64,000 bases of DNA. Origin: Candidatus Magasanikiibacteriota bacterium. GTDB lineage: Bacteria; Patescibacteriota; Patescibacteriia; Magasanikbacterales; GWA2-37-8. The stretch is taken from contig JBAYGI010000001.1 in NCBI GenBank assembly GCA_041666745.1, positions 6,447 to 70,446 of the forward strand, read 5' to 3'. The notes under the pieces were generated by a model that saw nothing but the letters and a program-made list of their open reading frames with translations, did not search any database and had not been told where the DNA came from. The translations under genes were made by a program, and so were the position numbers. Shown piece by piece: positions 24,472-63,649 of this stretch; the first letter of the stretch is position 1, and every line of letters begins with the position of its first letter.

Positions 24472-26049
24472 ATGGCTTATAAATTAGTAACGTTAGCAAT
24501 TTTTGATGGTTTGGGTGTGGCACCTGATTCGGATGGCAACGCGGTCACTCGCGCTAAAATGCCAAATTTCAAAAATTATATAAAAAATTATCCGGTCATG
24601 ACGGTGTTTGCTTCCGGAAATGAAGTTGGTTTGTCATTTGGTGAAATGGGTAATTCGGAAGTAGGCCATCTCAACATTGGTGCTGGTCGTGTATATTATC
24701 AGTCTTGTCCGCGTATTAATAACGAAATTGGTAACGGTGAATTTTTTAAGAACACGGCTTTTTTGGGCGCGTTGGAACATATCAAAAAAAATAAATCCAA
24801 TTTGCATTTGATCGGACTGCTGGGTATTGGCAATGTTCATGCCAGCGATAGTCATCTGTATGCCTTGTTGGATTTTTGCGCTCAAAACAAATTAGAAAAA
24901 AATGTATTTGTGCATGGGGTGTTGGATGGACGTGATGCCTTGTACAACTCCGGTAAAAATTTCGTGACTGATTTGTTGGCAAAAATGAAAGTGACGAAAG
25001 TTGGACAGATTGCTTCTTTGTCCGGACGTTTTTATGCTTTGGATCGAGACAACCGCTGGGATCGTTGTGAAAAAGCTTATCAGGCAATGGCGCTGGGAAA
25101 AGCAGATAGAAACAGTGATGATCCGTTGAAAATTATAGATGAATCTTATGAACAAAAAAATTACGATGAAGAATTTGTACCGACAGTGATCACCAAGGGT
25201 GGAAAACCGGTAGCCACTATCAAAGAAAATGACGCGGTAATTTTTTTCAATTTTCGTCCGGATCGAGCGCGTGAGTTGACCAAAGCTTTTGTTTTGCCCG
25301 GGTTTAATAAATTCGAAAGAGAATATATAAAAAATTTATTTTTTGTAACCATGACGGAATTTGAAAAAGATTTGCCAGCCGTAGTGGCTTATCCGCCGAT
25401 TGTGGTGCACAATTCGTTGGCTGAAACGGTGAGCAAAGCCGGTAAAAAACAATTTCATGTGGCCGAAACAGAAAAATACGCGCATATCACTTTCTTTTTA
25501 AACGGGACGGTTGAGGAACCATTTGCGGGAGAAGATAGAATGATTGTTCCTTCACCAAAGGTGTCTTCTTATTCTGAAGCGCCGGAAATGTCGGCAGCTT
25601 TGGTATCCAAAGAAGCAGTGAAAGCAATCGATAGTGGAAAATATGATTTGGTCGCTTTGAATTTTGCCAATGCGGATATGGTTGGTCATACTGGTGATTT
25701 GGCAGCTACCATCAAAGGGTGCGAAGCGGCCGATAAAGCTCTAGGTGAAGTGGTTGAGCACACTTTGGCCAAAGGTGGCGTGGTAGTGATAACCGCTGAC
25801 CATGGCAATGCGGAAGAAGTGATAAATTTACAAACTGGCGCAATGGACAAAGAACATTCCACCAATCCGGTGCCATTGTTGGTTGTTGGCAAAGATTTTG
25901 AAGGACAAGCCGGTCCGGCTGGTGAGCCACCCGAGGGGGATTTGAGTTTGATGCATCCAGTCGGGGTGTTGGCCGATGTAGCGCCGACAGTTTTGAGTCT
26001 GATGGGTGTACCACAACCACCGGAAATGACTGGCGCGGCTTTGATTTAA
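24472..26049 (+). CDS. gpmI: 2,3-bisphosphoglycerate-independent phosphoglycerate mutase (copy 2, tandem paralog)
   Basis: LAIFDGLGV, GNSEVGHLNIGAGRV, TADHGN. Motifs are intact in both copies. Confidence 0.9.
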   Translation: MAYKLVTLAIFDGLGVAPDSDGNAVTRAKMPNFKNYIKNYPVMTVFASGNEVGLSFGEMGNSEVGHLNIGAGRVYYQSCPRINNEIGNGEFFKNTAFLGALEHIKKNKSNLHLIGLLGIGNVHASDSHLYALLDFCAQNKLEKNVFVHGVLDGRDALYNSGKNFVTDLLAKMKVTKVGQIASLSGRFYALDRDNRWDRCEKAYQAMALGKADRNSDDPLKIIDESYEQKNYDEEFVPTVITKGGKPVATIKENDAVIFFNFRPDRARELTKAFVLPGFNKFEREYIKNLFFVTMTEFEKDLPAVVAYPPIVVHNSLAETVSKAGKKQFHVAETEKYAHITFFLNGTVEEPFAGEDRMIVPSPKVSSYSEAPEMSAALVSKEAVKAIDSGKYDLVALNFANADMVGHTGDLAATIKGCEAADKALGEVVEHTLAKGGVVVITADHGNAEEVINLQTGAMDKEHSTNPVPLLVVGKDFEGQAGPAGEPPEGDLSLMHPVGVLADVAPTVLSLMGVPQPPEMTGAALI

Positions 26050-28050: not shown

Positions 28051-30681
28051 ATGAAAGAATTACCAAAAGCCTACGAACCGCAAAAATACGAGGATTCTAT
28101 CTATAAACGCTGGGAAGAAAGTGGATATTTTAATCCGGATAATTTGTCTGGTGAACCGTTTTCTGTTTTGTTTCCACCCCCAAATGTTACCGGTGTTTTA
28201 CATCTTGGGCATGCGTTGGAAAATTCTTTGATGGATGCCATGATTCGCTATCAGCGTATGAAAGGTAAAAAAACTTTGTTGTTACCTGGTACTGATCATG
28301 CGGCAGTGGCCACGCAAGCAAAAGTAGAAAAAGATTTGATTAAACAGGGGCACATTCATCCACGCGAAGAATACGGTCGTGAAAAGTTGTTGGAAATTAT
28401 TCGCGACTATGCGGAAAAATCCAAAAGCACTATTTTAAATCAAATTAAAAAAATGGGAACCAGTTGTGATTGGTCTCGTTTGGCTTATACTTTTGATGAC
28501 CAGCGCAGTGTGGCGGTAAATACGGTTTTTAAAAAAATGTATGATGATGGTTTGATTTATCGTGGCTATCGTGTGGTCAATTGGTCGGTAAAGGGGCAAT
28601 CTACTTGTTCTGATGATGAGCTGGTGCATATTGAGCGTGATGCCAAAATGTATACTTTTAAATATTCAAAAGATTTTCCATTAACAATTTCTTCGACTCG
28701 TCCGGAAACAAAACTGGGTGATACAGCAGTGGCGGTCAATCCAAATGATGAACGTTATAAAAAATATATTGGTCAAACTTTTGTGGTAGATGTAGGTGCA
28801 GAAAAACTACTGAACATAAAAATCATTGCTGATGATGGTGTGGATATGGAGTTTGGTACAGGCGCTTTGGGAGTAACGCCGGCACACAGCGCGGTTGATT
28901 ATGAAATGTATATTAAACAAAAAACTCAAGGTAGTCCGATAGATTTAATTCCAGTAATTGGGATGGATGGAAAAATGTTGCCTACAGCCGGTAAAAAATA
29001 CGTCGGTTTGAAAACTGTGGAAGCTCGTGAAAAATTTGTAGAGTGGTTAAAAGAAAATGATTTGCTGATCAAGGAAGAAGATATAAAACAAAATGTTGGT
29101 ACGTCTGATCGTTTTGGTGATGTGGTTGAGGCTCTGCCAATGACTCAGTGGTTTGTCGATGTTAATAAAATTATTTCCGGTAAAAATAAAAGTCTGAAAG
29201 ATTTAATGAAAGAGGCGGTGACCATCGGTCATAGTGGTGATAAAGATAAAAAAATAAAAATTACGCCGGAACGTTTTGAAAAAGTTTATTTAAATTGGAT
29301 AGAAAATTTGCGTGACTGGTGTATTTCTCGCCAAATTTGGTGGGGTCATCGTATTCCGGTATGGTATAAAGGCGAAGAAGTTTTTTGTGGTTTAACCGCG
29401 CCGACTGATGGTGATTGGAAACAAGATGAAGATACTTTGGACACCTGGTTTAGCTCTGGTTTGTGGACATTTTCTACTTTGGGTTGGCCTAATGAGAAAA
29501 AAGATTTAGGTGTTTTTCATCCCTCCAGCTGGATGCAGATGGGTAATGAGATTATTTTCTTTTGGATGGCTAGAATGATTTTGATGACGACTTATGTCAT
29601 GGATACAATTCCGTTTAAAGAAGTTTATATTCATGGCATGTTGCGCGATGAACATGGCAAGAAATTTTCCAAATCAGCGGACAATGGTATTGACCCTCTG
29701 GATGCGGTCAAAGATTATGGTTGTGATGCTTTGCGTTTGAGTTTGTTGTCGGGTATTTCACCAGGGAATGACTCGTCTTTTTATAAAGAAAAAATAGAAG
29801 GATCACGCAATTTTGTAAATAAACTTTGGAATATTTCACGGTACGTTTTCTTGCAGATTGAAAAAGCAGATAAAAATATTTTGAAACCTCAAGCCAAAAC
29901 TTTGGCCGATCGTTGGATTCTTAGTCGCTTGGAAACAGTAAAATTAGATGTTGAAAAATTGTTGGATCGTTCGGATTTTTCATTGGCAGTTGAAAATTTA
30001 CGTACTTTTACTTGGACCGAATTTGCCGATTGGTATGTAGAGATTGCTAAAATTGAGAACGATAAGCAAGAAATTTTGAATTATCTGCTCAATACAATTT
30101 TGAAACTTTGGCATCCGTTCATACCGTTTGTGACTGAACAAATTTGGAGTGAAATTTACGATGAAAAAGAAATGTTGATGGTAGAAAAATGGCCAACGGC
30201 TGTCATTCCGAGCGAGACCGAGGAATCCCTTGACACATTTGAAATCATCAAAAATATTATTACCGGTATTCGCGCTTTGCGTGCCGAAAATAAGATTGAA
30301 CCGGCCAAAAAATTGGACGCGACGATCGGTGCTGACGAAAAAATTAATTTGATTAAAGAAAATTCGGATATTATCAAAATCTTGGCTCGTTTGGAAAATT
30401 TGGAAATTTTAGAAAAAGCTAAAAAATCCAAAACCGCCGTTGGGTTTGTAGAGGGAATAGTCGAAGTGTTTGTTGAATTAGCCGGAGTGATAGATTTGGA
30501 CAAAGAAAAAGAACGTTTGCAAAAAGAATTTGAAACGTTGACTAAATTTATCAATGGTCTGGAAAATAAATTGGCTAATGAGGAATTTGTCCAAAACGCA
30601 CCAGCGGTAGTGGTGGCCAAAGAAAAACAAAAATTGCAAGAGGCGCAAGAAAAATTGGATAAAATTGAAGCTCAACTTTAA
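28051..30681 (+). CDS. valS: valyl-tRNA synthetase
   Basis: HIGH (PNVTGVLHLGHAL), KMSKS (KFSKSADNG), and a C-terminal coiled coil. Contains an in-frame palindromic repeat at 30201-30229. Confidence 0.95.
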   Translation: MKELPKAYEPQKYEDSIYKRWEESGYFNPDNLSGEPFSVLFPPPNVTGVLHLGHALENSLMDAMIRYQRMKGKKTLLLPGTDHAAVATQAKVEKDLIKQGHIHPREEYGREKLLEIIRDYAEKSKSTILNQIKKMGTSCDWSRLAYTFDDQRSVAVNTVFKKMYDDGLIYRGYRVVNWSVKGQSTCSDDELVHIERDAKMYTFKYSKDFPLTISSTRPETKLGDTAVAVNPNDERYKKYIGQTFVVDVGAEKLLNIKIIADDGVDMEFGTGALGVTPAHSAVDYEMYIKQKTQGSPIDLIPVIGMDGKMLPTAGKKYVGLKTVEAREKFVEWLKENDLLIKEEDIKQNVGTSDRFGDVVEALPMTQWFVDVNKIISGKNKSLKDLMKEAVTIGHSGDKDKKIKITPERFEKVYLNWIENLRDWCISRQIWWGHRIPVWYKGEEVFCGLTAPTDGDWKQDEDTLDTWFSSGLWTFSTLGWPNEKKDLGVFHPSSWMQMGNEIIFFWMARMILMTTYVMDTIPFKEVYIHGMLRDEHGKKFSKSADNGIDPLDAVKDYGCDALRLSLLSGISPGNDSSFYKEKIEGSRNFVNKLWNISRYVFLQIEKADKNILKPQAKTLADRWILSRLETVKLDVEKLLDRSDFSLAVENLRTFTWTEFADWYVEIAKIENDKQEILNYLLNTILKLWHPFIPFVTEQIWSEIYDEKEMLMVEKWPTAVIPSETEESLDTFEIIKNIITGIRALRAENKIEPAKKLDATIGADEKINLIKENSDIIKILARLENLEILEKAKKSKTAVGFVEGIVEVFVELAGVIDLDKEKERLQKEFETLTKFINGLENKLANEEFVQNAPAVVVAKEKQKLQEAQEKLDKIEAQL
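30201..30229. repeat. palindromic element, in-frame in valS
   Basis: tgtcattccgagcgagaccgaggaatccc encodes VIPSETEES. About 93% identical to the intergenic copy at 60401-60429. Confidence 0.75.
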
Positions 30682-34730: not shown

Positions 34731-34814
34731 CACATCTTTACAGCATCTACATACAGGTATAGTATAATTTCTAGGCTTGTTTTGCCGTCTCTAAGGACGG
34801 AAAAGAGAGGGATC

Positions 34815-36032
34815 ATGCGAATTGAGCGACCTATCCGACCAAATTGGCCGGAGCGCAAATGGCCGCGTGTGGCCTTTATTGCACACGCGCTTTTGGACGG
34901 GTATCGCTCAACCGACTTGATCAGTCGACGGTTGGACGAACTCGGGCAAAAGTGGCCCCAGGATGGCGAGGATCCCGGGTTTATCAACTGGTTCTCCTTT
35001 CCTGTCACTCCGGTGGATGGTCAGGGACAGTCGGTGTGGGTTGATTTCTATATCATCCCGGTTCTGGCTGGACAATTTCTGGCTGCCTGCAAGAGCGGGC
35101 AGGCATACGACTGGGCGGAAGCTGTCGCACTCGCCGCGATCGCTGAAGCCAAGGCCGACGGTGTTCACATTACCGTTGGTTGGGGTGCGTTGACGAAAGT
35201 CGCGACTACTCACGGCGCTCGTTTTTTGGAGCGTAATGCGTGGGTGAAGTCCGACGATATGGTTTCGACTACCCATGGTGATGCCGGCACGGCCGCCTTG
35301 GTTCTCGAGACTATCCGTCGAGCTGGTTTCAAGCGAGGTTTTCGCGTTGCGGTGATTGGTGCCAACGGCGCCATCGGTGACGCGATTTCACGTTTGCTTC
35401 CTTCGCTTTCTCCTGAGAGCATCTTGCTCGTGGGGAAGGGCGGAGAGGTGAATGCCTCCCGCTTGAACGAATTGCGCGCGCGGGTGTTTGGTGGTGGTGA
35501 TCGAGTCGCCATTCACCAAGACAAATCGAGCGCGTGTCATGATCACCGGAGCGATTTGGTGATCATCGCGACTACCGGTATGGATATCGCTCCGAGCGAA
35601 ATCCCGTTGGGCGCACTCGTGCTCGACATGACAACTCCGTCTGCGTGCCACGCCAATAGCGAATGGCAGAATAACCGGTTGGTTCTAGCTTCCGGGTGTG
35701 GTCGGTTCGCCGATCGTGCCGTGAAGGAATCTTTCGGTCAATTCGGCGGCGAGTTGCTCGCGGACGTTGGAGCTGGCGGTCACCATGTGTTGTGGGGGTG
35801 CGCCGGCGAGACCATTACGCGAGCGGTCGCTGAATGGCACGGACACGTGGCTGGCACCAATATCCCTCTCGGGGATATCCAGTGGTGCGACAGTCATTTT
35901 CCGGAGCTGGGTTTCGCCCCCCAGTTGCCAGTCTCATTCGGGAGGAGTCTCGACTGGTCGGACGTGCACGCTTTCGTCGAGCGTTCACAAAAAAGAATTT
36001 CGGTGCAGGCGTCGCAACACCTTCACCAGTAA
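34815..36032 (+). CDS. high-GC Rossmann-fold NAD(P)-binding oxidoreductase-like protein (foreign composition)
   Basis: GC is far above the flanks. VAVIGANGAIGDAISRLL is a GxGxxG-type dinucleotide-binding motif. A TATAAT-like element is at about 34768 and a GAGAGGG RBS precedes ATG 34815; the ORF-track start at 34782 is also possible. Family is unassigned. Confidence 0.6.
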   Translation: MRIERPIRPNWPERKWPRVAFIAHALLDGYRSTDLISRRLDELGQKWPQDGEDPGFINWFSFPVTPVDGQGQSVWVDFYIIPVLAGQFLAACKSGQAYDWAEAVALAAIAEAKADGVHITVGWGALTKVATTHGARFLERNAWVKSDDMVSTTHGDAGTAALVLETIRRAGFKRGFRVAVIGANGAIGDAISRLLPSLSPESILLVGKGGEVNASRLNELRARVFGGGDRVAIHQDKSSACHDHRSDLVIIATTGMDIAPSEIPLGALVLDMTTPSACHANSEWQNNRLVLASGCGRFADRAVKESFGQFGGELLADVGAGGHHVLWGCAGETITRAVAEWHGHVAGTNIPLGDIQWCDSHFPELGFAPQLPVSFGRSLDWSDVHAFVERSQKRISVQASQHLHQ

Positions 36033-46737: not shown

Positions 46738-49700
46738 ATGGTGAAAAAAACAAAAGAAAAACAACAACCAAAAATAGAAGGAGCAGAGAGTGTTGTTGGT
46801 GCAGGCGACGCGTCGTCAGTTAAAGGGCCGAACGAAAAAGGGGCTCTTAGGAAAGCGGTAGACAGGTTGTTGGGAAAAAATCCTGAACAAACATTGGAAC
46901 AATCTGTAAAATTTACACCGGGTAGGATGTTTGAATATGAGAAGGGCGAGTTACCAGGGGTCGGGATGAGTTGGGAAGAAATTGGGGAGTTAATATACGC
47001 ATCTTTCGACGTTGATATTTTATATAGAGGTGGTCTAAGTCCTTGGGTTAAAAGAATTTTTAGTGATTTTCCAAACAGCGAAAAAGAGTTTGATAATTTA
47101 GATTATACAGAAAAGGCAAAATACGAAAAACTAATCGAAAAAAAACTTGAAGAGATTAAAGGTGAATTTGCTAAATCTAAAAATACTGAATTGTTGAATA
47201 AATTTTACGCAATGTATTCGCTTGAGTGTTACGAAGATGTTAGTAGTTTGTATGAGGTACGCGAGTCGTTGGAGGATGAAAGAATTGGGTCAGATGATGT
47301 TGATGAAGATGCTATAGAAAAAATCAAAGAGGGTGTTGAGATGGATATCAAAAAAGGCATAGAGTCGAGCGTAAAATTATTTCAACCAGTTAGAGAAAAA
47401 TTGACTAAATTGGGGTTTGAATTGGAAACTGTTTCTTCATGGAATGTTCAAGCAAGCAAGCAGGTTGGTATCCACCGTTTTAGTTTTGTAATAGATCAAT
47501 TTACAGGCAGTATGACATCACCAGATGATATGGTAAAGTTTTGGGAAGGCAAAAAATTAGGCAAAACCGTTGATTTGGCGAAAATAATTAAAGATGATAA
47601 GATTTTTTCTGTACATATTACAGAAAATTTAAGAAAGCAGGTTAAAGAGCAATACAGAGATGAATATAATCTAGAAGATATAACAGAAGAAGTATTGCGT
47701 ATTGAAGACATTACTTTTTCAGATTTATTAAAAAAGATGGATACGTTGGTTGATGAAATATTGGCCGCAAAGGAAGCTGGTGGCAGCAAGCTTGAAACGA
47801 CAGAGAAGGGTGAATTACCAGGCATAGGGCTGAGTTGGCAAGAAATAACAGCGATATCAGTCAACAATGATGATGTGGCGGCTGAAAAATTCTTTGGACA
47901 GATAACAAAAGATGAGCGTGTGGAGTTGGATGAATATTTTGGCAAGAATTCTAAATCTTCGCCAAGTAGTCATGCTACGGCGGTAATTGAAAAGCGATTT
48001 ATAAAATCAGGAAATATTAATCTACGTAATAAGTTTGTTGCAATGTGTCAGATTGACGATCTACGAAGGAATTATTACGAAGACAAAGATGTTCAAGCGG
48101 GTTTAGAACGACTCAATCAGATTGAGCAAAAATTTGCAAAAAAAGGATTTAGGACAACAAGAATTAATCACTTGAACATGCAATACAACATGGAAAAGGT
48201 TGTAGATGGAAATGTTTTTGATTTGATGTTTACGCAGAAAAGCAGACATGGTGATTTTCGAATATCAACAATGTTAATAAAAACAAAAACAGGTGAGGTC
48301 CCAAATTCGCAATTAGTGGAGGATGGTGAATATGAGTCTTTTGAACGAGTGTTGGATTATGTGGATGGTGGCGATGATAGCATTGATAATGATATAGCAC
48401 GGTTGCTGACTAAAAGTAAAGAAGGAAAATATACAACAAGTGATGTAAATAAAGTGTTAAGTGTCGGACACCAGCGTTCGTATGAGCGTATCAAAGACCA
48501 GATAAAGAAAACACCACCGGAGCGCTATCATGCCGAAGTTTGGGAAGGTAGTTATTCAGAAAGGATGTCAAAAGCAGAAAGATTGTTAAAAGATCCATCT
48601 TTGTCTGACGGTGAAAGAAAAGTTATAAAGATTGAATGGAATCGCCTTAATGATCGTGAACAAATAGAAAAACAAAGAGAATTGGCATTTCGTAAAAGTA
48701 CAACAGATTTATCAGCAAAAGAAATAAGGGAGGTTAGTAAAAAGTTTGATAATGAGATAAGTCAAGTAGATCAAACAGCGAGAAAAGCTTTGGAAAATTT
48801 AAGCAAAGAATCAGGTAGCGATCAGTTTTTGCGAAAGATGATAAAGGACGGGATGTTGCATATTCAATATGATAGTGAGGGTGCCGCTAAGCATATTCGT
48901 CCAGATGAATATAGAGACAGTACAAAAAAGACAGAGTTGAAAAACGCTGCAACAGAAGCGTCTGTTGAACGACAAAATAAAGAGTTGTTTGGGTTGTCTG
49001 AAGAGGAGAAAAAATTAACAGGAGACGAGAGAAAGAAAGTGATTGAAAAAAAGCGTAAGGAAATTTTGGAAAAAATTAAAGAAAAGGTAAGAGGGGTGGC
49101 CAGTGACTTAGAAAAGAATAAACCAAACGCCGGTTTTCATGAATTATTTCGTAGTATTTTTAAAGGTGTAAACGAATTAGGTGGTAAAGCAGGAGATAAA
49201 GTAGAAAATCGTGAATTTTTGAAAGATTTATTTGCAGATACTGAATTATTAAAAGAGTTATTAACAAAATTTAATTTTGTTGATGATAGTCGTCAAGATT
49301 TTAATGTATATACAAATGCCCCCGGTACGGAAACCGTTCGCAGTTTAGTGGGTATATTGAGAGAATTTTTTCCAGATGAAGCAGATTTAATTGCCGGAGA
49401 TGCGATTAATACAATATTTTTGGAGAGCCGACACAAAGACATGGAACGTTCATCTCGTCGAACAACATCGGAAAGTCCAAAATATGTAAAAGGAGTTACT
49501 GATTTTGGTGATGTCGATTTTGGTGCTGATTATACAAGTTATTGGCGTTTATTTGAAGTGGTATTTAAGGGGTTGGGAGTTTCGGTTAAACCTGATCAAC
49601 TGAAAGCGTTTAATGAAAAAATTTTGACTAATGTAAATTCCGCTTTACTTCTTGCAGAAAGTAAATTGATTGTAGGGCAAGGTCATGGGGATTTTAATGT

Positions 49701-50535
49701 GGGAAATTTATATTTGGAAACATATAAAAAGTTTTATGGTGAAAGTGGCGCTCGTACTCTGGCAACAGAAGCGTTATTTCCATCATTAGTTGACGATAAG
49801 GAAAAACAACGTAAGATTGGGGCGGGCAGAGAGTTTAATATTATGGGTTTGGGTGGTCATAGTAGAAATGCAGGAGCTATTTTGCAAATTTTTAAGGAGC
49901 ATGGATTAATTGATTTAAAATCTGCCAACCAAATGGTGCGTGTGGCAGAATTTATTGATCAATTAGATGGTGGTAGGAGTGCTGGTGGTATAAGCACTAA
50001 TCGAGAAATTATAGATACCAAAGAGGCAATCAGTACTGTATTTTCAAAAGAACAGGCGGCAAATAATGCTTTGGCGGAAGAAATTGATGAATTGGATTTG
50101 GATTCTATGGAACCTGCTGAGGCCTTGGCATATTTAAAAAAGAAAAAAGAAGCGCGTGGGAGTAAGAAAGAAAGTATAGCTCCGGAAACAGAAAAAGAGA
50201 AAGAAGCACGATCTCGTTATGATCAGAGGATAGTGGCGTGCGAGAGCGAGAACGTTGCCAATTATGGGTTTCAATACGGTGACTGGGGTAGAGATAGAAT
50301 CATCATAGACATAGAAGAAGCAAAAGTTTTGCCTACCGATGTACAGTGTAAGAAAATAATTGATATTTATAAAGAGGCTATTATTAATGAAAGTAATTAC
50401 GAAAATATTTCAATAACGGCTAGGCTTTTGAAGAATTTTGTTCGTTTAACTAGTTTTGTCCCAGATAGCTCAACTATGGAAAAAATTAGCAAGAAAGTTA
50501 AAGATGCAAAAGAGTTGTTGAGAAAGAACAGATAA
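46738..50535 (+). CDS. giant acidic hypothetical protein (1265 aa) with internal repeats
   Basis: Repeated YEKGELPGVGMSWEEIGELI / TEKGELPGIGLSWQEITAIS modules; coiled-coil-rich. Confidence 0.6.
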   Translation: MVKKTKEKQQPKIEGAESVVGAGDASSVKGPNEKGALRKAVDRLLGKNPEQTLEQSVKFTPGRMFEYEKGELPGVGMSWEEIGELIYASFDVDILYRGGLSPWVKRIFSDFPNSEKEFDNLDYTEKAKYEKLIEKKLEEIKGEFAKSKNTELLNKFYAMYSLECYEDVSSLYEVRESLEDERIGSDDVDEDAIEKIKEGVEMDIKKGIESSVKLFQPVREKLTKLGFELETVSSWNVQASKQVGIHRFSFVIDQFTGSMTSPDDMVKFWEGKKLGKTVDLAKIIKDDKIFSVHITENLRKQVKEQYRDEYNLEDITEEVLRIEDITFSDLLKKMDTLVDEILAAKEAGGSKLETTEKGELPGIGLSWQEITAISVNNDDVAAEKFFGQITKDERVELDEYFGKNSKSSPSSHATAVIEKRFIKSGNINLRNKFVAMCQIDDLRRNYYEDKDVQAGLERLNQIEQKFAKKGFRTTRINHLNMQYNMEKVVDGNVFDLMFTQKSRHGDFRISTMLIKTKTGEVPNSQLVEDGEYESFERVLDYVDGGDDSIDNDIARLLTKSKEGKYTTSDVNKVLSVGHQRSYERIKDQIKKTPPERYHAEVWEGSYSERMSKAERLLKDPSLSDGERKVIKIEWNRLNDREQIEKQRELAFRKSTTDLSAKEIREVSKKFDNEISQVDQTARKALENLSKESGSDQFLRKMIKDGMLHIQYDSEGAAKHIRPDEYRDSTKKTELKNAATEASVERQNKELFGLSEEEKKLTGDERKKVIEKKRKEILEKIKEKVRGVASDLEKNKPNAGFHELFRSIFKGVNELGGKAGDKVENREFLKDLFADTELLKELLTKFNFVDDSRQDFNVYTNAPGTETVRSLVGILREFFPDEADLIAGDAINTIFLESRHKDMERSSRRTTSESPKYVKGVTDFGDVDFGADYTSYWRLFEVVFKGLGVSVKPDQLKAFNEKILTNVNSALLLAESKLIVGQGHGDFNVGNLYLETYKKFYGESGARTLATEALFPSLVDDKEKQRKIGAGREFNIMGLGGHSRNAGAILQIFKEHGLIDLKSANQMVRVAEFIDQLDGGRSAGGISTNREIIDTKEAISTVFSKEQAANNALAEEIDELDLDSMEPAEALAYLKKKKEARGSKKESIAPETEKEKEARSRYDQRIVACESENVANYGFQYGDWGRDRIIIDIEEAKVLPTDVQCKKIIDIYKEAIINESNYENISITARLLKNFVRLTSFVPDSSTMEKISKKVKDAKELLRKNR

Positions 50536-50559: not shown

Positions 50560-50755
50560 ACCCCCCTTGACAACCCAAGGGGGTTTTGGTATAGTGATTG
50601 CACCATAGACAGCAGGTGGCGAAAGCCTTAATTACCTGCCGAGGTACAAAAACTAATACTGGATTCCCACTTTCGTGGGAATGACAGTGTAGGAAGTCGA
50701 TTTGTACTGTATTATACGTCTGTGGAAACACAGATTTTTTTGTTAAAAAATCGTT
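50560..50755 (+). promoter_or_regulatory. ribosomal protein L10 leader (rplJL autoregulatory 5' UTR)
   Basis: Structured region directly upstream of rplJ (ccccccttgacaacccaagggggtt hairpin and others). It contains one palindromic-repeat copy. Confidence 0.5.
50660..50685. repeat. palindromic element within the L10 leader
   Basis: ggattcccactttcgtgggaatgaca. Confidence 0.65.
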
Positions 50756-58084: not shown

Positions 58085-59092
58085 ATGTTTATCAAGAAAA
58101 TCGGCATTGATTTGGGGACGACGAATGTTTTGGTGTATGTACCCAAAAAAGGGATTGTTTTGAACGAACCAAGTGTCGTGGCAATATCCAAAGCCGATGG
58201 TAAAGTGTTGGCGGTTGGCTTGGAAGCCAAAGATATGTTGGGGCGAACACCGGATACGATTGTCGCCGAACGTCCGCTCAAAGATGGAGTGATTGCCAAC
58301 TACCAAATAACCGAGGCGATGTTGCGTTATTTTATAAACAAAGCTTTGGGTGGGGCGCGTTTGTTTAGACCGGAGGTAATGGTGGCGGTGCCGGCGGGAA
58401 TTACTTCGACCGAAAGACGCGCGGTGATTGATGCGACTATCGCGGCCGGCGCGCGGGCGGCTTATATTATCAAAGAACCGATTGTCGCGGCGATTGGCGC
58501 GGATATTCCGATTGGCGCGGCCTCTGGACATATGATTATCGATATTGGCGGGGGCACGGCTGAAATCGCGGTGATTTCTTTGGGCGGAATTGTTTCGAGT
58601 GGATCAGCTCGGGTTGGTGGTACAAAATTTGATCGAGCGATTGTGGAACATATTCGTCAAAAATATAATTTGGCGGTTGGTGAACGCACTTCTGAAGATA
58701 TTAAAATTACCGTTGGGTCGGCGATGTTTATGGACAAGCCTTTGACTATGGAAGTAAAAGGACGTGATATGATCAATGGACTGCCTCGTATTATTACTGT
58801 TTCTTCTGATGATACTACCGAAGCTTTGCAACACGAGCTAGGTCTTTTGATTGACGCTATCAAACAAGTGCTTTTTGATACTCCGCCGGAATTGTCGGCC
58901 GATGTGATGGATAAAGGAATAATAATGTCGGGCGGATCTTCGTTGCTGCGCAATTTGGATGAGTTGGTGGCTCAAGCGACTGGGGTGCCGACTTATTTGG
59001 CTGAGGAGCCTTTGTTGTGTGTGGTGAAGGGGACGGGGATTGCGTTGGATAATTTGGATAGTTATAAGCGTAGTATTTTGGCTACTAAATAA
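58085..59092 (+). CDS. mreB: rod-shape-determining protein MreB
   Basis: IGIDLGTTNVLVYV, DIGGGTAEIAV and the rest of the actin fold. Confidence 0.95.
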   Translation: MFIKKIGIDLGTTNVLVYVPKKGIVLNEPSVVAISKADGKVLAVGLEAKDMLGRTPDTIVAERPLKDGVIANYQITEAMLRYFINKALGGARLFRPEVMVAVPAGITSTERRAVIDATIAAGARAAYIIKEPIVAAIGADIPIGAASGHMIIDIGGGTAEIAVISLGGIVSSGSARVGGTKFDRAIVEHIRQKYNLAVGERTSEDIKITVGSAMFMDKPLTMEVKGRDMINGLPRIITVSSDDTTEALQHELGLLIDAIKQVLFDTPPELSADVMDKGIIMSGGSSLLRNLDELVAQATGVPTYLAEEPLLCVVKGTGIALDNLDSYKRSILATK

Positions 59093-59116
59093 TTTTCTTC
59101 ATTTTTTTTATTTTTC

Positions 59117-59248
59117 GGACAAGCCTTGATAATATGTATTTTGAAACACGTGTCGGTTTTGTTTCGACAAAACCGCACTCTCACTCACTTCGGCTGTGAG
59201 ACCGAAGTTCCGTGGCGGTTTCAAAACACATATTACCAAGGCTTGTCC
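59117..59248. repeat. 31-bp near-perfect inverted repeat pair flanking a 70-bp hairpin-rich core (MITE, inverton or sRNA-like)
   Basis: Left ggacaagccttgataatatgtattttgaaac (59117-59147) against right gtttcaaaacacatattaccaaggcttgtcc (59218-59248): 29 of 31 complementary. Both mismatches would be G-U pairs in a minus-strand transcript. The core has cggtttt/aaaaccg and cttcgg/ccgaag hairpins. Confidence 0.7.
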
Positions 59249-59267
59249 TCTGAATATCTTCTTTTTT

Positions 59268-60389
59268 ATGTTTATTGGTATCGATGCTTCACATGCAAAT
59301 AAGTTACAACGGACTGGTGTGGAAGAATATTGTTGGCAGGTGATTCAGGAATTAAAAAAAATTGTGCCGAGTGACTGTCGGGTGGTTTTGTATTCCAATG
59401 GTAATTTGTTGCCGGAGTTGGATCAGTTGCCGGCAAACTGGGAATTAAAAATTTTAAAATGGCCATTGAAAAAAATGTGGAGCCAGTTTCCTTTGGCTTA
59501 TGAGCTTTGGAAAAATCCGCCGGATGTTTATTTTTCTCCGGGACAATTGTTGCCATTTTTTGCTCCCAAAAATTCGGTGGTGATGGTGCACGATAGCGCG
59601 TTTGAAGCTTATCCGAATGTTTATAGATTTTTTGGTCGGCAATATTTGAAATGGATGAATCGGTTGATTGTCAAAAAATCTAAGTTGATTTTAACTTCGA
59701 CGGAATTTAATAAACAGGAAATGTTAAAATTTTATGATTCCCCCCACTGTCATTCCGACCGACTGAAAGGAGTGGAGGAATCTCTTTCCAATAAAATAAA
59801 AGTTATCCCCCTGGCCTGTGATTCTAAAAAATTTAATTTAGAAAAATCCGCCGGTCAAAATATTTATGGTAAATATATTTTGTCTATTGGTCGGCTGGAA
59901 GAAAAAAAGAATACCGCTAGAATTGTGGAAGCTTTTGGTTTGGTAAAAAAACAATTTTCAGATTTAAAATTGGTTTTAATTGGAAAACACGGAGCGTGTT
60001 TTGAAAAAATTCAGAGAGCGATTGATAGTAGTGAATACAAAAAAGACATTATTTTACTTGGGTTTGTGGAGGCGGATGAATTGTTAACTATATTAAAAAA
60101 CGCGCAGGTATTCGTGTTTCCTTCACTGTATGAGGGGTTTGGTATTCCAGTATTGGAGGCGATGACGGTGGGAGTACCGGTGGTGGTGAGTAAAGGCGGT
60201 GCTTTGGAAGAAGTAGGAAAAGAAGCGGTGGAGTGTGTGGATCCACTGGATACAAAAGATATTAGCGAGAAAATTTTAAACCTTTTGCAGGATGAAGAAT
60301 ATAAAAAACAAAAAATCGCCTTAGGTTTGGAAAGAGTAAAACAATTTTCTTGGGAAAAAACCGCGCGAGAGACATACCTATCATTATGA
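59268..60389 (+). CDS. GT4-family glycosyltransferase
   Basis: E-x7-E motif (EGFGIPVLEAMTVGVPVVVSKGGALEEV). ATG at 59268 preferred. Contains an in-frame palindromic repeat at 59748-59784 encoding CHSDRLKGVEES. Confidence 0.85.
   Translation: MFIGIDASHANKLQRTGVEEYCWQVIQELKKIVPSDCRVVLYSNGNLLPELDQLPANWELKILKWPLKKMWSQFPLAYELWKNPPDVYFSPGQLLPFFAPKNSVVMVHDSAFEAYPNVYRFFGRQYLKWMNRLIVKKSKLILTSTEFNKQEMLKFYDSPHCHSDRLKGVEESLSNKIKVIPLACDSKKFNLEKSAGQNIYGKYILSIGRLEEKKNTARIVEAFGLVKKQFSDLKLVLIGKHGACFEKIQRAIDSSEYKKDIILLGFVEADELLTILKNAQVFVFPSLYEGFGIPVLEAMTVGVPVVVSKGGALEEVGKEAVECVDPLDTKDISEKILNLLQDEEYKKQKIALGLERVKQFSWEKTARETYLSL
59748..59784. repeat. palindromic element, in-frame in the GT4 gene
   Basis: tgtcattccgaccgactgaaaggagtggaggaatctc. 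Confidence 0.7.
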
Positions 60390-60546: not shown

Positions 60547-61089
60547 TCATTCGCACCTCCGAAAGAACTTTTTGCCGAGTTTCTGCGCCAGATCCGCCAT
60601 GCGGTTGGTGCGTTCGACATCGGCTGTTGTTTGAGAGCGGGCGACGCGCAACTGTGCGATTCGCTCGCGGATTTCTGCGGTGGTCGCGGATGTGTCGGTT
60701 AGGGTAATGTAGCCCAACATGTGGGCTGCATGAATCCCTACCTCGCCACCGTGGCCGTGTATATCCGACCAGATTTTCAACGCCATTTTCTGGGCGCTGA
60801 TATCTCCGGTTATCCGCCACCATATGAACAGTAGGTTGGCCAACATGTTTTTGGCCTCACCATCCTTGAGCGTTGCTGTCACGCTCATTTCCTCCAGAAA
60901 TTTTAAGCCTCCGTACCGCTCCATGACCGTCATGGCGGCTTTTTCGCGTCCGTCGCTGATGAGGTTCGTCACCATGTTTTGGACGAACTCCAGCTTCGCA
61001 AGGTCTGCGATCATATTGCCCTCCGCAAGCTGTAAATGCACAGCACTGGCAAAACAGTTGATATTATCAGGTCTGTTAAGTTTTGTCAA
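60547..61089 (-). CDS. GC-elevated hypothetical protein (180 aa; foreign composition)
   Basis: GC is clearly above the flanks. TTG start at 61089 or ATG at 61014. No recognisable motif (HGHGGEVGIHAAHMLGY). Confidence 0.45.
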   Translation of the reverse strand: MTKLNRPDNINCFASAVHLQLAEGNMIADLAKLEFVQNMVTNLISDGREKAAMTVMERYGGLKFLEEMSVTATLKDGEAKNMLANLLFIWWRITGDISAQKMALKIWSDIHGHGGEVGIHAAHMLGYITLTDTSATTAEIRERIAQLRVARSQTTADVERTNRMADLAQKLGKKFFRRCE

Positions 61090-61150: not shown

Positions 61151-61195
61151 AGAATTAATTAAAATTATTTTATTTTAAAATAAACTTTGAACAAT

Positions 61196-63649
61196 ATGAC
61201 AAAAAGAAATAAGGAATCTTTTGGGGCTCCACAAGAAGCTCGAGAACCTAAGGTTGGTGGGGTTGAAAAAAATAAAAAGGTAGAGGTGTGGACAGACGAA
61301 AGAGCCAATGAAGATTCAGAAGCGAAGGCCAATCGTTTGTTTGATCAGATGAAGAAAGATCTGAGAGAAAAAAGAGCGGAAGCAAAAAAGGAAGGCAAAA
61401 GTGAAACGGAAATTAAAGCTATTAAATTTGACAAAAGTTCGGATGCCTACAGAGCGTGGATTGATGCCTGCAGTGATAACACCTATGAAGATTTGGATAA
61501 AAGAGAAAGTGAATTGCACGCTAGATTAGAAAAAGCTCAAGAGGCCGGTGAAGATGTTGAAAAAAGCGGTTTATATGACCAGTGGGAAAGAGCCAACAGA
61601 AAGCTTGGTACGGTTTCCGCAGCTAGGAGAATTAGAAAGGAATTAGATATAAAACTAACTAGCATAGAAGATAGAATAGGAGATTTAACAGAAAAATCAG
61701 GAAGTTTGGGTGGAGACAATTTATCTATCGGTGCTGAGGTCATTACTTTGGGTGGAGAAATTGACGTTGTAACTGCCCAAAGAAGTGTAGTAGATACACT
61801 CGCGGTTAACCCAGATGATGTGATTGAAATGCCACCACCATTCACAATAGAAAACATATTGGAAAGTGAAAATGATGCAAGTGCACTTGAAGCAATCATG
61901 GAAGAAGTTGACCCGAGATTAGCTACGGTTGAAGGTGGTTTTTTTGGTGTTGAAGCTTCTTCCGGAGGTAGAGGCGCAGAAAAAATCATATCAGTTTTTT
62001 CAAAAGAATTAGCCAAAGATGAAAAGGCCAAAATTGGTTTTAGGGAAGCAGTCTTTACTCAAAAGTTAAATCAATACGTGGGTGATGATGAGGTTTTTGC
62101 TGGCTTGTTATTAAAAAATAAAGAATTTATAGGGGCAGTCAATGATTTTTTTAATGCCAAGGTTGGACCGTTTGGTAATAAGGCAATGGAAATGGCGGCG
62201 ACATTTACTTATATTTTGGAGATTGCCCGCTCTATTTATGATACACAAAAGACTGAAATGTCACGAGCCAAAAACCAAGATTCTGAAGTGGAGCCACGAA
62301 AAGAAGGTGTAAGTTTTGTGGAGAATGAAACAGTGCCGTCAAATTTGATGGAGCACACAGCAATAAAAAGATTTTTTGGGAGTTTAGATAAAAAGTCCGG
62401 AATAAAGGATCCAGGAAAATTAAAAGCTGAGGTTAGCAGTTTGAAGTCGGATATGAATGTCAAAAAAGCTGATTTGGAAATTCAGCAAGACACTTTGAAA
62501 CAATGCAAGTGGTATGAATTCAACAAAAAGAGTCAATTAAAAGATAAAATAAAATCTACCACCAAGGATATTGCCGGGTTGTTTGAGGCGCTCGTGCATT
62601 TGGGAGATCAGATTACTGGCAAAGAAGTGGATGGTCATTTGTTAGCAGGTTCAGATTTAGCCAATTTAAATTTAGTTTTGGCTGATCAAATAAATCAACT
62701 AAAATCCGGTAAAGAAAAAATTGGTTCTACGGATTTCTTCGATAGGTTTGCTGAAGTGTCAGCCGTGCTGGCTGCATTGGCAGTTATGTTTTCTGTGGCC
62801 ATGGCGGCTAGAAGCGAAGGAAAGGCCAGACCACAACAAGCAGAAGAAACTGAGATGGTCAGTGTAGTAAATGAAGCAACAACTGAAACAGAAGAAACAG
62901 AGGCGCCGGTTAGTGGTAGTCGTGAAGAAGTTCAACCAAAGGATTTTGATCTGGGTATTACAGCACTTCCTGGTTTTATAGAAAATGAAACACCGTCGGT
63001 AGTTAAGAAAACTACCAGAGGAGCAAGACATATAGAATCAAAACCTGGTTCTTCTGCGGACACAAAATTAACGTACGAAGAACAAATGAAAAAGTTTGAT
63101 GATCAAATCGAATCTCAACGCAGGTATGTCCGTGGTTTAGAAGAACACAAAGGAAAAAGTACAACACCGACATTGGATATTGAAAATCTAGGAAAGGAAG
63201 ACAAAACATCACCTGTCTGGCATGAAAATACTATCGCCAAGGCTGAAGCAAAGATATTGGAATTAGAAGCAGCCAAACGAGCTTATTCTTTGAAAAAACA
63301 CCAAGATGATATTTCAAGAGAGACCAAAGTTCCAGGATCTGTTCCAAAAGTTCAAGTAGAGGTAGAACGACAAGTTGATTACAAGAGTCTTGATTTTAGC
63401 CGACCATATATTGGTCAGTTAGGTACTGCCTTTGATTTGGTGAGAGAAATACACGAACTTGCTTCAGTGGCAAAACCACGTGATTTAAAAGGATTGGTAA
63501 CCAAGTTAGGGACAGCAATTAGCTCAAGTGAACAGTTTAGGGGGCAAGGTAATCATAGTGCCGGTGATATTACAGCGGCAAAAAATTTAGAAAAAGTTGC
63601 CAAAGAAATGCGCAATAAAATAAATAACAACCAATTGAGCGGGTTATAA
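61196..63649 (+). CDS. large acidic hypothetical protein with central TM/hydrophobic segment
   Basis: ATG at 61196 (the track's TTG is at 61187). Hydrophobic AVLAALAVMFSVAMAA; coiled-coil-rich. Confidence 0.55.
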   Translation: MTKRNKESFGAPQEAREPKVGGVEKNKKVEVWTDERANEDSEAKANRLFDQMKKDLREKRAEAKKEGKSETEIKAIKFDKSSDAYRAWIDACSDNTYEDLDKRESELHARLEKAQEAGEDVEKSGLYDQWERANRKLGTVSAARRIRKELDIKLTSIEDRIGDLTEKSGSLGGDNLSIGAEVITLGGEIDVVTAQRSVVDTLAVNPDDVIEMPPPFTIENILESENDASALEAIMEEVDPRLATVEGGFFGVEASSGGRGAEKIISVFSKELAKDEKAKIGFREAVFTQKLNQYVGDDEVFAGLLLKNKEFIGAVNDFFNAKVGPFGNKAMEMAATFTYILEIARSIYDTQKTEMSRAKNQDSEVEPRKEGVSFVENETVPSNLMEHTAIKRFFGSLDKKSGIKDPGKLKAEVSSLKSDMNVKKADLEIQQDTLKQCKWYEFNKKSQLKDKIKSTTKDIAGLFEALVHLGDQITGKEVDGHLLAGSDLANLNLVLADQINQLKSGKEKIGSTDFFDRFAEVSAVLAALAVMFSVAMAARSEGKARPQQAEETEMVSVVNEATTETEETEAPVSGSREEVQPKDFDLGITALPGFIENETPSVVKKTTRGARHIESKPGSSADTKLTYEEQMKKFDDQIESQRRYVRGLEEHKGKSTTPTLDIENLGKEDKTSPVWHENTIAKAEAKILELEAAKRAYSLKKHQDDISRETKVPGSVPKVQVEVERQVDYKSLDFSRPYIGQLGTAFDLVREIHELASVAKPRDLKGLVTKLGTAISSSEQFRGQGNHSAGDITAAKNLEKVAKEMRNKINNNQLSGL

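What the first reader, a model, noticed from the sequence alone, without database searches (positions are those of the whole stretch)
59117..59248. 31-bp near-perfect inverted repeats flanking a 70-bp core directly upstream of a surface glycosyltransferase gene
Left arm 59117-59147 and right arm 59218-59248 are complementary at 29 of 31 positions. The two mismatches are A/C on the plus strand, so they would be G-U wobbles if the element is transcribed from the minus strand. The 70-bp core holds two further hairpins. The element sits between mreB and a GT4 glycosyltransferase, 20 bp before its ATG. IRs flanking a short segment upstream of polysaccharide genes is the inverton (invertible promoter) arrangement. 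Alternatives are a MITE or a stable antisense sRNA.
Basis: seen in the sequence. Interest (0 to 1): 0.6.

Follow-up and report, generated by a model that had tools for sequence, protein, structure and literature searches.

The report
Conserved three-way-junction hairpin between mreB and glycosyltransferase
The inverted repeat is real, but it is not an invertible promoter: it is the long closing stem of a previously undescribed, evolutionarily conserved folded element (probably an RNA) that was inserted between two formerly abutting genes in one small group of uncultured Magasanikbacteria, and its function is still unknown.

Summary
Observation confirmed: arms 59117-59147/59218-59248 pair at 29/31, both mismatches are A/C on the plus strand, and the 70-nt core holds two hairpins. 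The inverton reading is not supported. Ten distinct homologues were recovered from Candidatus Magasanikbacteria (CPR) assemblies. Nine sit in the same mreB-GT4 spacer, always in the same orientation. One diverged second copy lies in an unrelated operon of one MAG. The fold is a three-way junction closed by a 30-32-bp helix. 24 of 57 pairs show compensatory double changes (97% paired; 0/500 shuffles). The junction core is nearly invariant, while the mid-stem has diverged to about 53% identity and flanking third codon positions to 64%. More distant relatives, and two lineages nested inside the carrier clade, have mreB and GT only 1-4 nt apart. So the element arose by insertion, is dispensable, and has been cleanly lost. 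Copy number is 1-2 per genome, with no convincing target duplication, no promoter, no terminator, no nearby recombinase and no Rfam, phage or plasmid match. Best reading: a new structured RNA module of mobile origin embedded in the operon transcript. It is Correia/ERIC-like in architecture but not in copy number. The functional strand is unresolved.

The parts
58085..59092 (+). mreB (upstream cistron; context)
   Evidence: 335-aa ORF, PF06723 MreB_Mbl. In relatives that lack the element its stop codon lies 1-4 nt from the GT start.
59093..59110 (.). variable T-rich spacer between the mreB stop and the element
   Evidence: Length varies from 3 to 29 nt among homologues and the sequence is not conserved.
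59111..59116 (.). conserved 5' flank TTTTTC
   Evidence: 5 of 7 columns invariant, 96% mean identity. It is shared by the independent L012 copy, so it belongs to the unit.
59117..59147 (.). P1, 5' arm of the 31-bp closing helix
   Evidence: 18 of 32 P1 pairs show compensatory double changes. The outer 8 bp and inner 10 bp are conserved (73% and 88-89%), the middle only 51-55%.
59148..59149 (.). junction strand J1/2 (AC)
   Evidence: consensus structure
59150..59178 (.). P2 hairpin (GUG-U-CGGUUUUGU / UUCG loop / ACAAAACCG-CAC)
   Evidence: 12 pairs, 100% paired, 3 with double changes among 9 sequences. L029 adds a G-C to U-A swap (checked against the L029 sequence).
59179..59180 (.). junction strand J2/3 (TC), inside the invariant block GCACTCTCACTCACT (59175-59189)
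   Evidence: invariant in all 10 copies
59181..59215 (.). P3: 4-bp basal helix, 2x3 internal loop, 9-bp hairpin with a GUGA loop
   Evidence: 3 pairs of the apical helix have double changes and 98.8% of its cells are paired. The loop on plus is GUGA in 7 copies of alignment A8 plus L029, GCGA in one and AUGA in one.
59216..59217 (.). junction strand J3/1 (CG), inside the invariant block AGTTCCGTGGCGGTTT (59206-59221)
   Evidence: invariant in all 10 copies
59218..59248 (.). P1, 3' arm
59249..59257 (.). conserved 3' flank TCTGAATAT
   Evidence: TCT is invariant in all copies. TCTGAATAY is present in 5 of 10 copies, including the independent L012 copy.
59268..60389 (+). GT4-family glycosyltransferase (downstream cistron; context)
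   Evidence: 373 aa, PF00534/PF13692/PF20706. The gene call begins at 59268.

Best explanation
The 132-bp inverted-repeat structure is the visible part of a roughly 147-bp conserved structured element. It consists of a 30-32-bp helix (P1) closing a three-way junction with two hairpins (P2, P3), plus short conserved flanks (TTTTTC ... TCTGAATAY).

Shown: it was inserted into a formerly abutting mreB|GT4 gene junction in one sub-clade of Candidatus Magasanikbacteria. It has since been inherited at that site. It has been cleanly lost in at least two nested lineages. It has one diverged paralogue at another co-directional gene junction.

Shown: its helices are maintained by compensatory substitutions, while about 31 junction and internal-loop nucleotides are invariant.

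Inferred: it acts as RNA. It carries no promoter or terminator of its own and lies between co-directional, closely spaced genes at both loci. It is therefore most likely read as part of the operon transcript (plus sense). There the very long helix loops the insert out. This keeps the mreB stop and the GT start close in space, and it offers an RNase III-type processing or 3'-end-stabilising site that uncouples the two cistrons. The invariant junction core would be a sequence-specific docking site for an unidentified trans factor (a protein, or less likely a small ligand).

The functional strand is not settled.
For: The structure is real and under selection. 55 alifold pairs, 20 with double changes, in 7 sequences. 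On 9 sequences, 97.2% of 509 cells are paired, 24 of 57 pairs have changes on both sides, 0 of 500 shuffles reach this, and slid controls give 35-45% paired. A 10th copy adds more covariation (checked).

The core sequence is under selection. 47 of 70 core columns are invariant, and P1 inner is 88-89% identical against 51-55% for P1 middle. Adjacent coding DNA is 82% identical and its third positions 64%.

Insertion origin and dispensability. Empty junctions read TAA-N1-4-ATG in L008, L010, L024, L021 and L030. L021 is 87-88% identical in GT protein to the carriers L016 and L029, and L030 is 83% identical to the carrier L003.

The second locus lies between a methyltransferase gene and a ComEC-C/MBL gene in the same MAG as L014.

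No own promoter or terminator, although canonical promoters exist in this genome. The orientation matches the flanking genes at both loci.

Plus-sense features: GNRA-type P3 loop in 9 of 10 copies (GUGA x8, GCGA x1), an invariant U.G at the base of P3, and U.G/U-A/C-G alternation at the apical closing pair.
Against: Strand statistics are split. In P1, non-Watson-Crick transition pairs are A.C on plus (= G.U on minus) in 10 cells, against 2 G.U on plus (plus L029 read). Element-only MFE is lower on minus in 7 of 9 copies. Unpaired core positions are pyrimidine-rich and A-poor on plus (A 11%), hence purine-rich on minus, which is more typical of functional RNAs (my own knowledge).

No expression data, RNase III site, binding partner or ligand is known. 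Two clean losses show the element is not essential. Perfect long palindromes can also be maintained at the DNA level by template switching, so covariation in P1 alone does not prove an RNA role. Only 10 sequences from one narrow clade were available.
Confidence: 0.4

Rival explanations
1. It is an independent small RNA gene on the minus strand (antisense orientation relative to the operon). The 31-bp helix is the closing stem of a stable roughly 135-nt ncRNA, and the purine-rich junction and internal loop (GGA/GA, GA, GU, CG) bind a protein.
For: P1 mismatch census: 10 G.U-on-minus cells against 2 A.C-on-minus cells (plus L029). The minus strand folds better in 7 of 9 copies and in the window (-77.8 vs -67.1 kcal/mol). 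Unpaired core positions on minus are 36% A and 33% G.
Against: The conserved unit extends only 9 nt beyond the stem on the side where a minus-strand promoter would have to lie. No sigma-70-like promoter on the minus strand was found downstream of the element in the scanned region 58800-59500, and the corresponding sequence at the second locus L012 is unrelated. After the stem the minus strand reads GAAAAA..., with no U-tract terminator. On minus, the invariant U.G pairs of P3 become C.A, the GNRA-type loop becomes UCAC, and P2 gets C.A mismatches in L002 and L028. Pooling all helices, transition-type mismatch events are roughly 8 against 5-6, which is not significant.
Confidence: 0.25
2. It is a non-autonomous mobile DNA palindrome (MITE-like, or a hairpin-forming insertion element). 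Its structure matters only at the DNA or ssDNA level for mobility, and it is otherwise a passenger at this site.
For: It is clearly an insertion into a compact gene junction. Presence and absence are polymorphic inside the carrier clade. A second copy exists at an unrelated junction. It has long terminal IRs with conserved outermost 8 bp, is 132-147 bp long, and is flanked by TC and T-runs on both sides. A Logan contig breaks inside it. The host genome demonstrably carries another dispersed palindromic repeat family.
Against: There are 1-2 copies per genome: one in 64 kb here, and 1, 1 and 2 in the three GTDB MAGs that match the pattern. There is no unambiguous TSD, no transposase among the 44 window ORFs scanned, and no hit in viral contigs, phages or plasmids. 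A vertically inherited passenger copy should decay at the neutral rate. Instead the core is invariant while the arms have diverged past third-codon-position levels. That is the opposite of MITEs, in which the transposase-binding TIRs are the conserved part.
Confidence: 0.2
3. It is a cis-regulatory aptamer (riboswitch-like, or a protein-binding leader) controlling the downstream glycosyltransferase.
For: A three-way junction with invariant junction nucleotides and covarying stems is aptamer-like. It lies 17-28 nt upstream of the GT start in 8 of the 9 mreB-GT copies.
Against: A 30-32-bp closing helix leaves no switchable expression platform, and there is no terminator or SD-sequestering alternative. 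The paralogue precedes a ComEC-C/MBL gene and lies 75 nt from its start. In L014 the spacer to the GT start is about 100 nt. GT orthologues function without it in closely related lineages. No Rfam match.
Confidence: 0.07
4. It is an inverton: the 31-bp IRs are recombination sites and the 70-bp core is an invertible promoter for the GT gene.
For: IRs flank a short segment immediately upstream of a surface-glycan-type gene. IR arms of invertons can also co-evolve.
Against: The orientation is identical in all 10 distinct homologues and all redundant assemblies. The core hairpins covary. There is no promoter match in the core. No invertase lies within 57 kb among the ORFs scanned. The core is only 70 bp. 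The paralogue is not at a polysaccharide gene.
Confidence: 0.03

Closest known systems
Correia repeat-enclosed elements (CREE/NEMIS) of Neisseria
   Same: A small (104-157 bp) element made of about 26-bp terminal inverted repeats around a conserved, directional core. It is inserted in intergenic regions next to genes and is co-transcribed with them. The IR hairpin in the mRNA is bound or cleaved by RNase III, which changes the expression of neighbouring genes (PMC2649163; PMC10969869). Size, IR-plus-directional-core architecture, operon-embedded position and insertion/absence polymorphism all match.
   Different: CREE has more than 100-250 copies per genome, a target duplication, IHF sites and outward promoters (PMC2649163). 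Here there are 1-2 copies per genome, no clear TSD and no promoter. The core folds into two covarying hairpins forming a three-way junction, and the core, not the IR, is the most conserved part. There is no sequence similarity.
ERIC / REP-BIME type intercistronic palindromes of enterobacteria
   Same: These are imperfect palindromes inside operons that are transcribed and alter the stability of, or differential expression from, flanking cistrons. ERIC acting through RNase E in Yersinia is summarised in PMC10969869. REP stabilising upstream mRNA is from my own knowledge.
   Different: Those are multi-copy families (30-700 copies) of simple hairpins without an invariant multi-helix core. No homology was detected.
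Invertons (invertible promoters, e.g. fimS, Bacteroides capsular loci)
   Same: IRs flank a short segment directly upstream of a surface-glycan-related gene (PMC11602134 and PMC11892184 for the class).
   Different: No orientation heterogeneity among homologues, no promoter in the core, no nearby invertase, internal hairpins that covary, and a 70-bp core.
Orphan structured RNA motifs found by comparative genomics (Rfam-type three-way-junction ncRNAs and aptamers)
   Same: Covarying helices around invariant junction nucleotides, intergenic position, narrow phylogenetic range.
   Different: No match to any of the 4227 Rfam 15 models, even at E <= 10. The unusually long, near-perfect closing helix and the insertion/loss behaviour are atypical for housekeeping ncRNAs or riboswitches.
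Rickettsia palindromic elements (RPE)-like short repeats present in the same genome
   Same: The host genome carries a dispersed palindromic family (GGATTCC...GGAATGACAG), some copies of which are inserted in-frame in genes. This shows that hairpin elements do move in these genomes.
   Different: That family is shorter (about 30-50 bp), multi-copy (at least 11 copies in 64 kb) and unrelated in sequence. The focal element is single-copy in the window.

Membership tests
Inverton (invertible promoter) | Both orientations of the segment between the IRs occur in populations or assemblies | tested here: not met
   10 distinct homologues plus redundant contigs all have the same core orientation relative to mreB->GT. 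Raw reads could not be examined.
Inverton (invertible promoter) | A promoter lies inside the invertible segment | tested here: not met
   There is no sigma-70-like site oriented towards GT in 59148-59217. The region gave 2 hits against 1.0 expected, and neither is a plus-strand site in the core. The organism uses canonical promoters.
Inverton (invertible promoter) | A site-specific recombinase (invertase) is encoded nearby or dedicated | tested here: not met
   Pfam scan of 44 ORFs of the window (ORF 46738-50535 and a few small ORFs were not scanned). The only recombinase found is a Xer-like tyrosine recombinase at 1461-2303, 57 kb away.
MITE | Terminal inverted repeats, small size (<300 bp), no coding capacity | tested here: met
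   31-bp IRs in a 132-147-bp unit. The open frames are not conserved because of indels.
MITE | Multiple dispersed copies per genome | tested here: not met
   1 copy in the 64-kb window. 4 hits in 3 MAGs over 185,579 species genomes. 6 hits in JGI metagenomes, all but one of the distinct ones in the same mreB-GT site.
MITE | Target-site duplication flanking the TIRs | tested here: inconclusive
   TC precedes and follows the IRs in all copies, and T-runs lie on both sides. Both could equally be part of the unit. The empty-versus-filled comparison does not define a duplication.
MITE | Related autonomous element or transposase with matching TIRs | tested here: inconclusive
   No transposase was found among the 44 window ORFs scanned with Pfam (not every ORF was scanned). 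Whole genomes could not be searched.
Correia/ERIC-like transcribed palindromic element | Co-transcription with flanking genes and RNase III/E processing of the IR hairpin | not testable with these tools
   No transcriptome data. Supported only indirectly by the lack of an own promoter or terminator and by the co-directional flanking genes.
Any described RNA family (Rfam 15) | Score at or above the gathering threshold of a covariance model | tested here: not met
   No family reaches its threshold. The best chance hits are 13-26 bits with E > 0.3. ARAGORN finds no tRNA or tmRNA here.
Structured functional RNA (generic) | Helices supported by compensatory substitutions beyond phylogenetic and shuffle controls | tested here: met
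   24 of 57 pairs have double changes. Covariation score is 0.394 against 0.135 for shuffles (0/500) and 0.03-0.08 for slid controls.
Riboswitch | Aptamer coupled to an expression platform; consistent association with one gene function | tested here: not met
   No terminator or anti-terminator, and no SD-sequestering alternative. The paralogue is upstream of an unrelated gene.
Intrinsic terminator | GC-rich stem followed immediately by a U-tract | tested here: not met
   On plus, TCTGAATAT follows the stem. On minus, GAAAAA follows it. No terminator-like site is reported at the element.

The most novel reading that the evidence does not exclude
The element is a new class of sequence-specific structured RNA confined to CPR Magasanikbacteria. 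It would be a three-way-junction RNA with an invariant catalytic or binding core carried on a roughly three-turn helix. It would propagate as a low-copy, site-preferring mobile unit, gained at compact gene junctions and cleanly lost again, i.e. an RNA-level or homing-like selfish/regulatory module with no known counterpart (for example a new self-processing ribozyme, or a protein-recruiting RNA of a mobile system).
Probability: 0.2. Interest if true: 0.8.

Novelty: new variant of a known kind. Interest (0 to 1): 0.5.

Why it matters
CPR/Patescibacteria have tiny, densely packed genomes and almost no described non-coding RNA biology. A roughly 150-bp non-coding insert that splits a formerly abutting mreB|glycosyltransferase junction is therefore notable. 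It retains an invariant multi-helix core across species whose synonymous sites are near saturation. It is a concrete, testable candidate for a new functional RNA, or a new kind of low-copy mobile structured element, in this lineage. It also offers natural with/without comparisons (closely related genomes lacking it) for testing how a large hairpin affects expression of two cell-envelope genes. It further serves as a caution: long IRs upstream of glycan genes should not be called invertons without evidence on orientation and on the core.

Tried and rejected
Rfam with permissive thresholds on the window region and on two homologous loci gave only chance hits. Whole-window Rfam and ARAGORN found only an L10 leader and tRNA-Leu.

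Known classes considered and rejected from the sequence:
- SRP RNA (no GNAR/AGCAGCC domain IV motif).
- 6S RNA (no central bubble).
- Hammerhead, twister, pistol and hatchet ribozymes (core motifs absent, no CM hit).
- Retron msr-msd (no RT).
- IS200/605, IS110 and TnpB guide RNAs (no partner ORF).
- Integron attC (no R''/R' boxes at the outer ends; invariant core is atypical).
- CRISPR (arms end in GAAAC/GTTTC but are inverted, variable between species and single).
- K-turn in the GGA/GA loop (spacing does not fit).

Searches that led nowhere:
- Pattern scan of viral contigs, and blastn against phages and plasmids: nothing.
- Trans-target search for complements of the invariant blocks in the window: nothing above chance.
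- Protein-space trick, i.e. searching translated element frames for mis-called ORFs that overlap other copies.
- Literature searches for CPR/Magasanikbacteria ncRNAs or MITEs: nothing relevant.

Strand assignment was attempted by mismatch census, MFE, alifold energies (-115.8 vs -117.0), loop types and loop composition. It remained inconclusive.

Full report
OBSERVATION. The window sequence and the repeat finder confirm the finding to the base. Arms 59117-59147 and 59218-59248 are 31 nt long, 29/31 complementary and 70 nt apart. The arm is unique in the 64-kb window, and no shuffle produces such a pair. Both mismatches are A on the left arm opposite C on the right arm of the plus strand. Either strand folds into a 31-bp helix closing two hairpins: -67.1 kcal/mol (z = -10.9) on plus and -77.8 (z = -12.3) on minus. 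The result is similar with DNA parameters. The flanking genes are mreB (58085-59092) and a GT4-type glycosyltransferase whose ATG is at 59268, 19 nt after the stem.

ORGANISM AND CONTEXT. The exact MreB and GT proteins map to a 222-kb ENA contig, and the source name for the GT is Candidatus Magasanikbacteria (CPR/Patescibacteria). The window is 38% G+C with strongly positive GC skew. Nearly all of it is housekeeping genes on the plus strand.

HOMOLOGUES. Loci encoding close GT orthologues all show DUF4012-mreB-[150-190 nt]-GT, and the spacer contains the same element. An exact-anchor pattern built from the two invariant blocks was scanned over three collections:
- 185,579 species genomes: 4 hits in 3 MAGs.
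- JGI metagenomes: 6 hits.
- IMG/VR viral contigs: 0 hits.
Together with two further GT-guided look-ups this gives 10 distinct copies. Nine lie in the mreB-GT spacer: window, L002, L003, L005, L014, L015, L016, L028 and L029. One, L012, comes from the same MAG as L014 but lies between a methyltransferase gene and a ComEC-C/MBL-fold gene. In every case the asymmetric core has the same orientation as the flanking genes. A covariance model built from seven copies finds no further copy in the window or in about 240 kb of related loci.

STRUCTURE AND SELECTION. RNAalifold on seven sequences predicts 55 pairs, 20 of them with compensatory double changes. I then tested a fixed structure on nine sequences: P1 32 bp, P2 3+9 bp, and P3 4 bp + 2x3 internal loop + 9 bp.
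- 97.2% of 509 cells are paired.
- 24 of 57 pairs changed on both sides.
- The covariation score is 0.394, against 0.135 in shuffles (0/500) and 0.03-0.08 when partners are slid by 1-3 columns.
Conservation is strongly patterned:
- P1 middle is 51-55% identical.
- P1 outer 8 bp is 73% identical.
- P1 inner 10 bp is 88-89% identical.
- In the core, 47 of 70 columns are invariant, including GCACTCTCACTCACT and AGTTCCGTGGCGGTTT in all ten copies.
For comparison, the adjacent mreB and GT coding DNA is 82% identical and GT third codon positions are 64% identical. So the core is under purifying selection on its sequence, and the helices are under selection on pairing. P1 length is held at 30-32 bp. 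Short flanks are shared even by the independent L012 copy and therefore belong to the unit: TTTTTC upstream and TCT(GAATAY) downstream.

ORIGIN BY INSERTION, AND LOSS. In more distant relatives mreB and GT are 1-4 nt apart, reading TAA-N-ATG (L008, L010, L024). In L006 a 56-nt unrelated spacer separates them. The element is therefore an insertion of about 150-175 bp into a compact operon junction. Two empty junctions are nested inside the carrier clade. L021 is 87-88% identical in GT protein to the carriers L016 and L029. L030 is 83% identical to the carrier L003. The elements of L016/L029 and of L002/L003 resemble each other as their hosts do, which indicates vertical inheritance with at least two clean losses. 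T-runs and a TC dinucleotide flank the unit on both sides, but no unambiguous target duplication can be defined.

WHAT IT IS NOT.
- Inverton. The orientation is constant, the core hairpins covary, and the core holds no promoter, although the organism has canonical promoters. The only recombinase found among the 44 window ORFs scanned with Pfam is Xer-like and 57 kb away (ORF 46738-50535 and a few small ORFs were not scanned). The paralogue does not precede a glycan gene.
- Classical MITE. There are 1-2 copies per genome, no clear TSD, no transposase in view, and a conservation pattern opposite to what a transposase-bound TIR predicts.
- Terminator or riboswitch. There is no U-tract on either strand, no expression platform, and the downstream genes are unrelated.
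- Known RNA family. Nothing was found in Rfam 15 even at E <= 10, and there is no tRNA or tmRNA.
- Phage or plasmid sequence. No matches.

WHICH STRAND? The evidence is split.
For minus:
- In P1, transition-type mismatches are A.C on plus (G.U on minus) in 10 cells, against 2 G.U on plus. Several cluster 10-12 bp below the junction (L029 read).
- The minus strand folds better in 7 of 9 copies.
- Unpaired core positions on minus are 36% A and 33% G, against 11% A on plus.
For plus:
- The P3 loop is GNRA-type in 9 of 10 copies (GUGA x8, GCGA x1; the tenth is AUGA).
- The closing pair of that loop alternates U.G/U-A/C-G.
- The base of P3 has an invariant U.G.
- P2 has G.U in two copies. All of these would be C.A on minus.
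- The conserved unit is too short to carry a promoter for either strand, no terminator follows it, and at both loci it lies between closely spaced co-directional genes. Plus-sense transcription therefore comes for free.
Alifold energies are equal: -115.8 on plus against -117.0 on minus. I treat the strand as unresolved and lean slightly to plus on expression logic.

MECHANISM (inferred). The element most resembles the transcribed palindromic insertion elements, above all the Correia repeat-enclosed elements. Those have about 26-bp IRs around a directional conserved core, are 104-157 bp long, and form an RNase III substrate in mRNA (PMC2649163, PMC10969869). My best reading is an operon-embedded structured RNA module of mobile origin. 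The three-turn helix loops the insert out and keeps the mreB stop (9-35 nt before the stem) and the GT start (17-28 nt after it in 8 of 9 copies) close together. It also provides a processing or 3'-end-stabilising site that uncouples the two cistrons. The invariant three-way junction would recruit a specific, unknown factor. The steps that are shown are structure, selection, insertion, loss, low copy number, and the absence of promoter, terminator and recombinase. The steps that are inferred are RNA as the active form, the strand, RNase III involvement, and a trans factor.
Rivals:
- a minus-strand sRNA (0.25);
- a purely DNA-level mobile palindrome (0.2);
- a GT-specific aptamer (0.07);
- an inverton (0.03).

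NOVELTY AND SCORE. No described family matches, and the literature library holds nothing on such an element in CPR. In architecture and probable mode of action it is a variant of known transcribed palindromic elements. It differs from them in three ways: very low copy number, a covarying multi-helix core that is more conserved than the IRs, and persistence at one syntenic site. I rate it a new variant of a known kind, with interest 0.5. There is a 0.2 chance that it is a truly new class of functional or mobile RNA, which would deserve about 0.8.

Noticed in passing
window 2460, 2733, 2754, 3162, 7497, 7887, 10851, 30200, 50678, 59747, 60400 (each +/- about 45 nt): A dispersed family of short palindromic repeats (GGATTCC[C/T]...N...GGGAATGACA[G/A]). 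There are 15 matches to GGAATGACAG with at most 1 mismatch, against 2.9 expected. Several copies lie inside ORFs (uvrC-like 2300-3619, ValRS 28051-30681, the GT gene), one lies inside the L10 leader hit, and one lies just after the GT stop. Related copies sit next to the focal element in L012 and L014.
   Followed up: partly
window 59739-59786 (inside the GT gene): An in-frame 16-codon insert (SPHCHSDRLKGVEESL) formed by one of these palindromes. Orthologous GTs (P0006, P0014, P0015) carry different in-frame inserts at the same position, while others have none. This is RPE-like in-frame insertion of palindromic elements.
   Followed up: partly
window 50568-50596: A textbook sigma-70 promoter (TTGACA, 17 nt, TATAGT, preceded by TGG) directly upstream of the Rfam L10_leader hit (50585-50749). 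It shows that this CPR organism uses canonical promoters.
   Followed up: no
window 34782-36032: A 416-aa ORF in a segment with 49% G+C against about 38% for the rest of the window. It has no Pfam match. Possibly horizontally acquired.
   Followed up: no
window 22926-24470 and 24472-26049: Two tandem paralogues of cofactor-independent phosphoglycerate mutase (iPGM) within a glycolysis gene cluster (GAPDH, PGK, enolase).
   Followed up: no
L012 2443-2487 (minus strand of the locus): The paralogous copy has a 22-nt (TA)n expansion in the left arm of P1 only. The expansion forms its own small hairpin and leaves the 32-bp P1 register intact.
   Followed up: partly
L004 1-39: A Logan contig begins inside the element (model positions 111-149), i.e. 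an assembly break at the long hairpin. Such elements may be under-represented or truncated in short-read assemblies.
   Followed up: no
window 60547-61089 (-) and 61187-63649 (+): A minus-strand ORF of 155-180 aa and a plus-strand ORF of 770-880 aa, both without Pfam matches, follow the GT gene. This arrangement is seen only in the clade that carries, or recently lost, the element. Outgroups (L006, L024) have a single protein of about 950-1070 aa instead.
   Followed up: no
window 59126-59302 (+) and the minus-strand frame across 59111-59257: Because the element is palindromic and stop-free in two frames, gene callers extend or invent ORFs across it. Examples are P0005 with an N-terminal extension, P0122, and the GTG start at 59196 in the window. 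These are annotation artefacts.
   Followed up: yes
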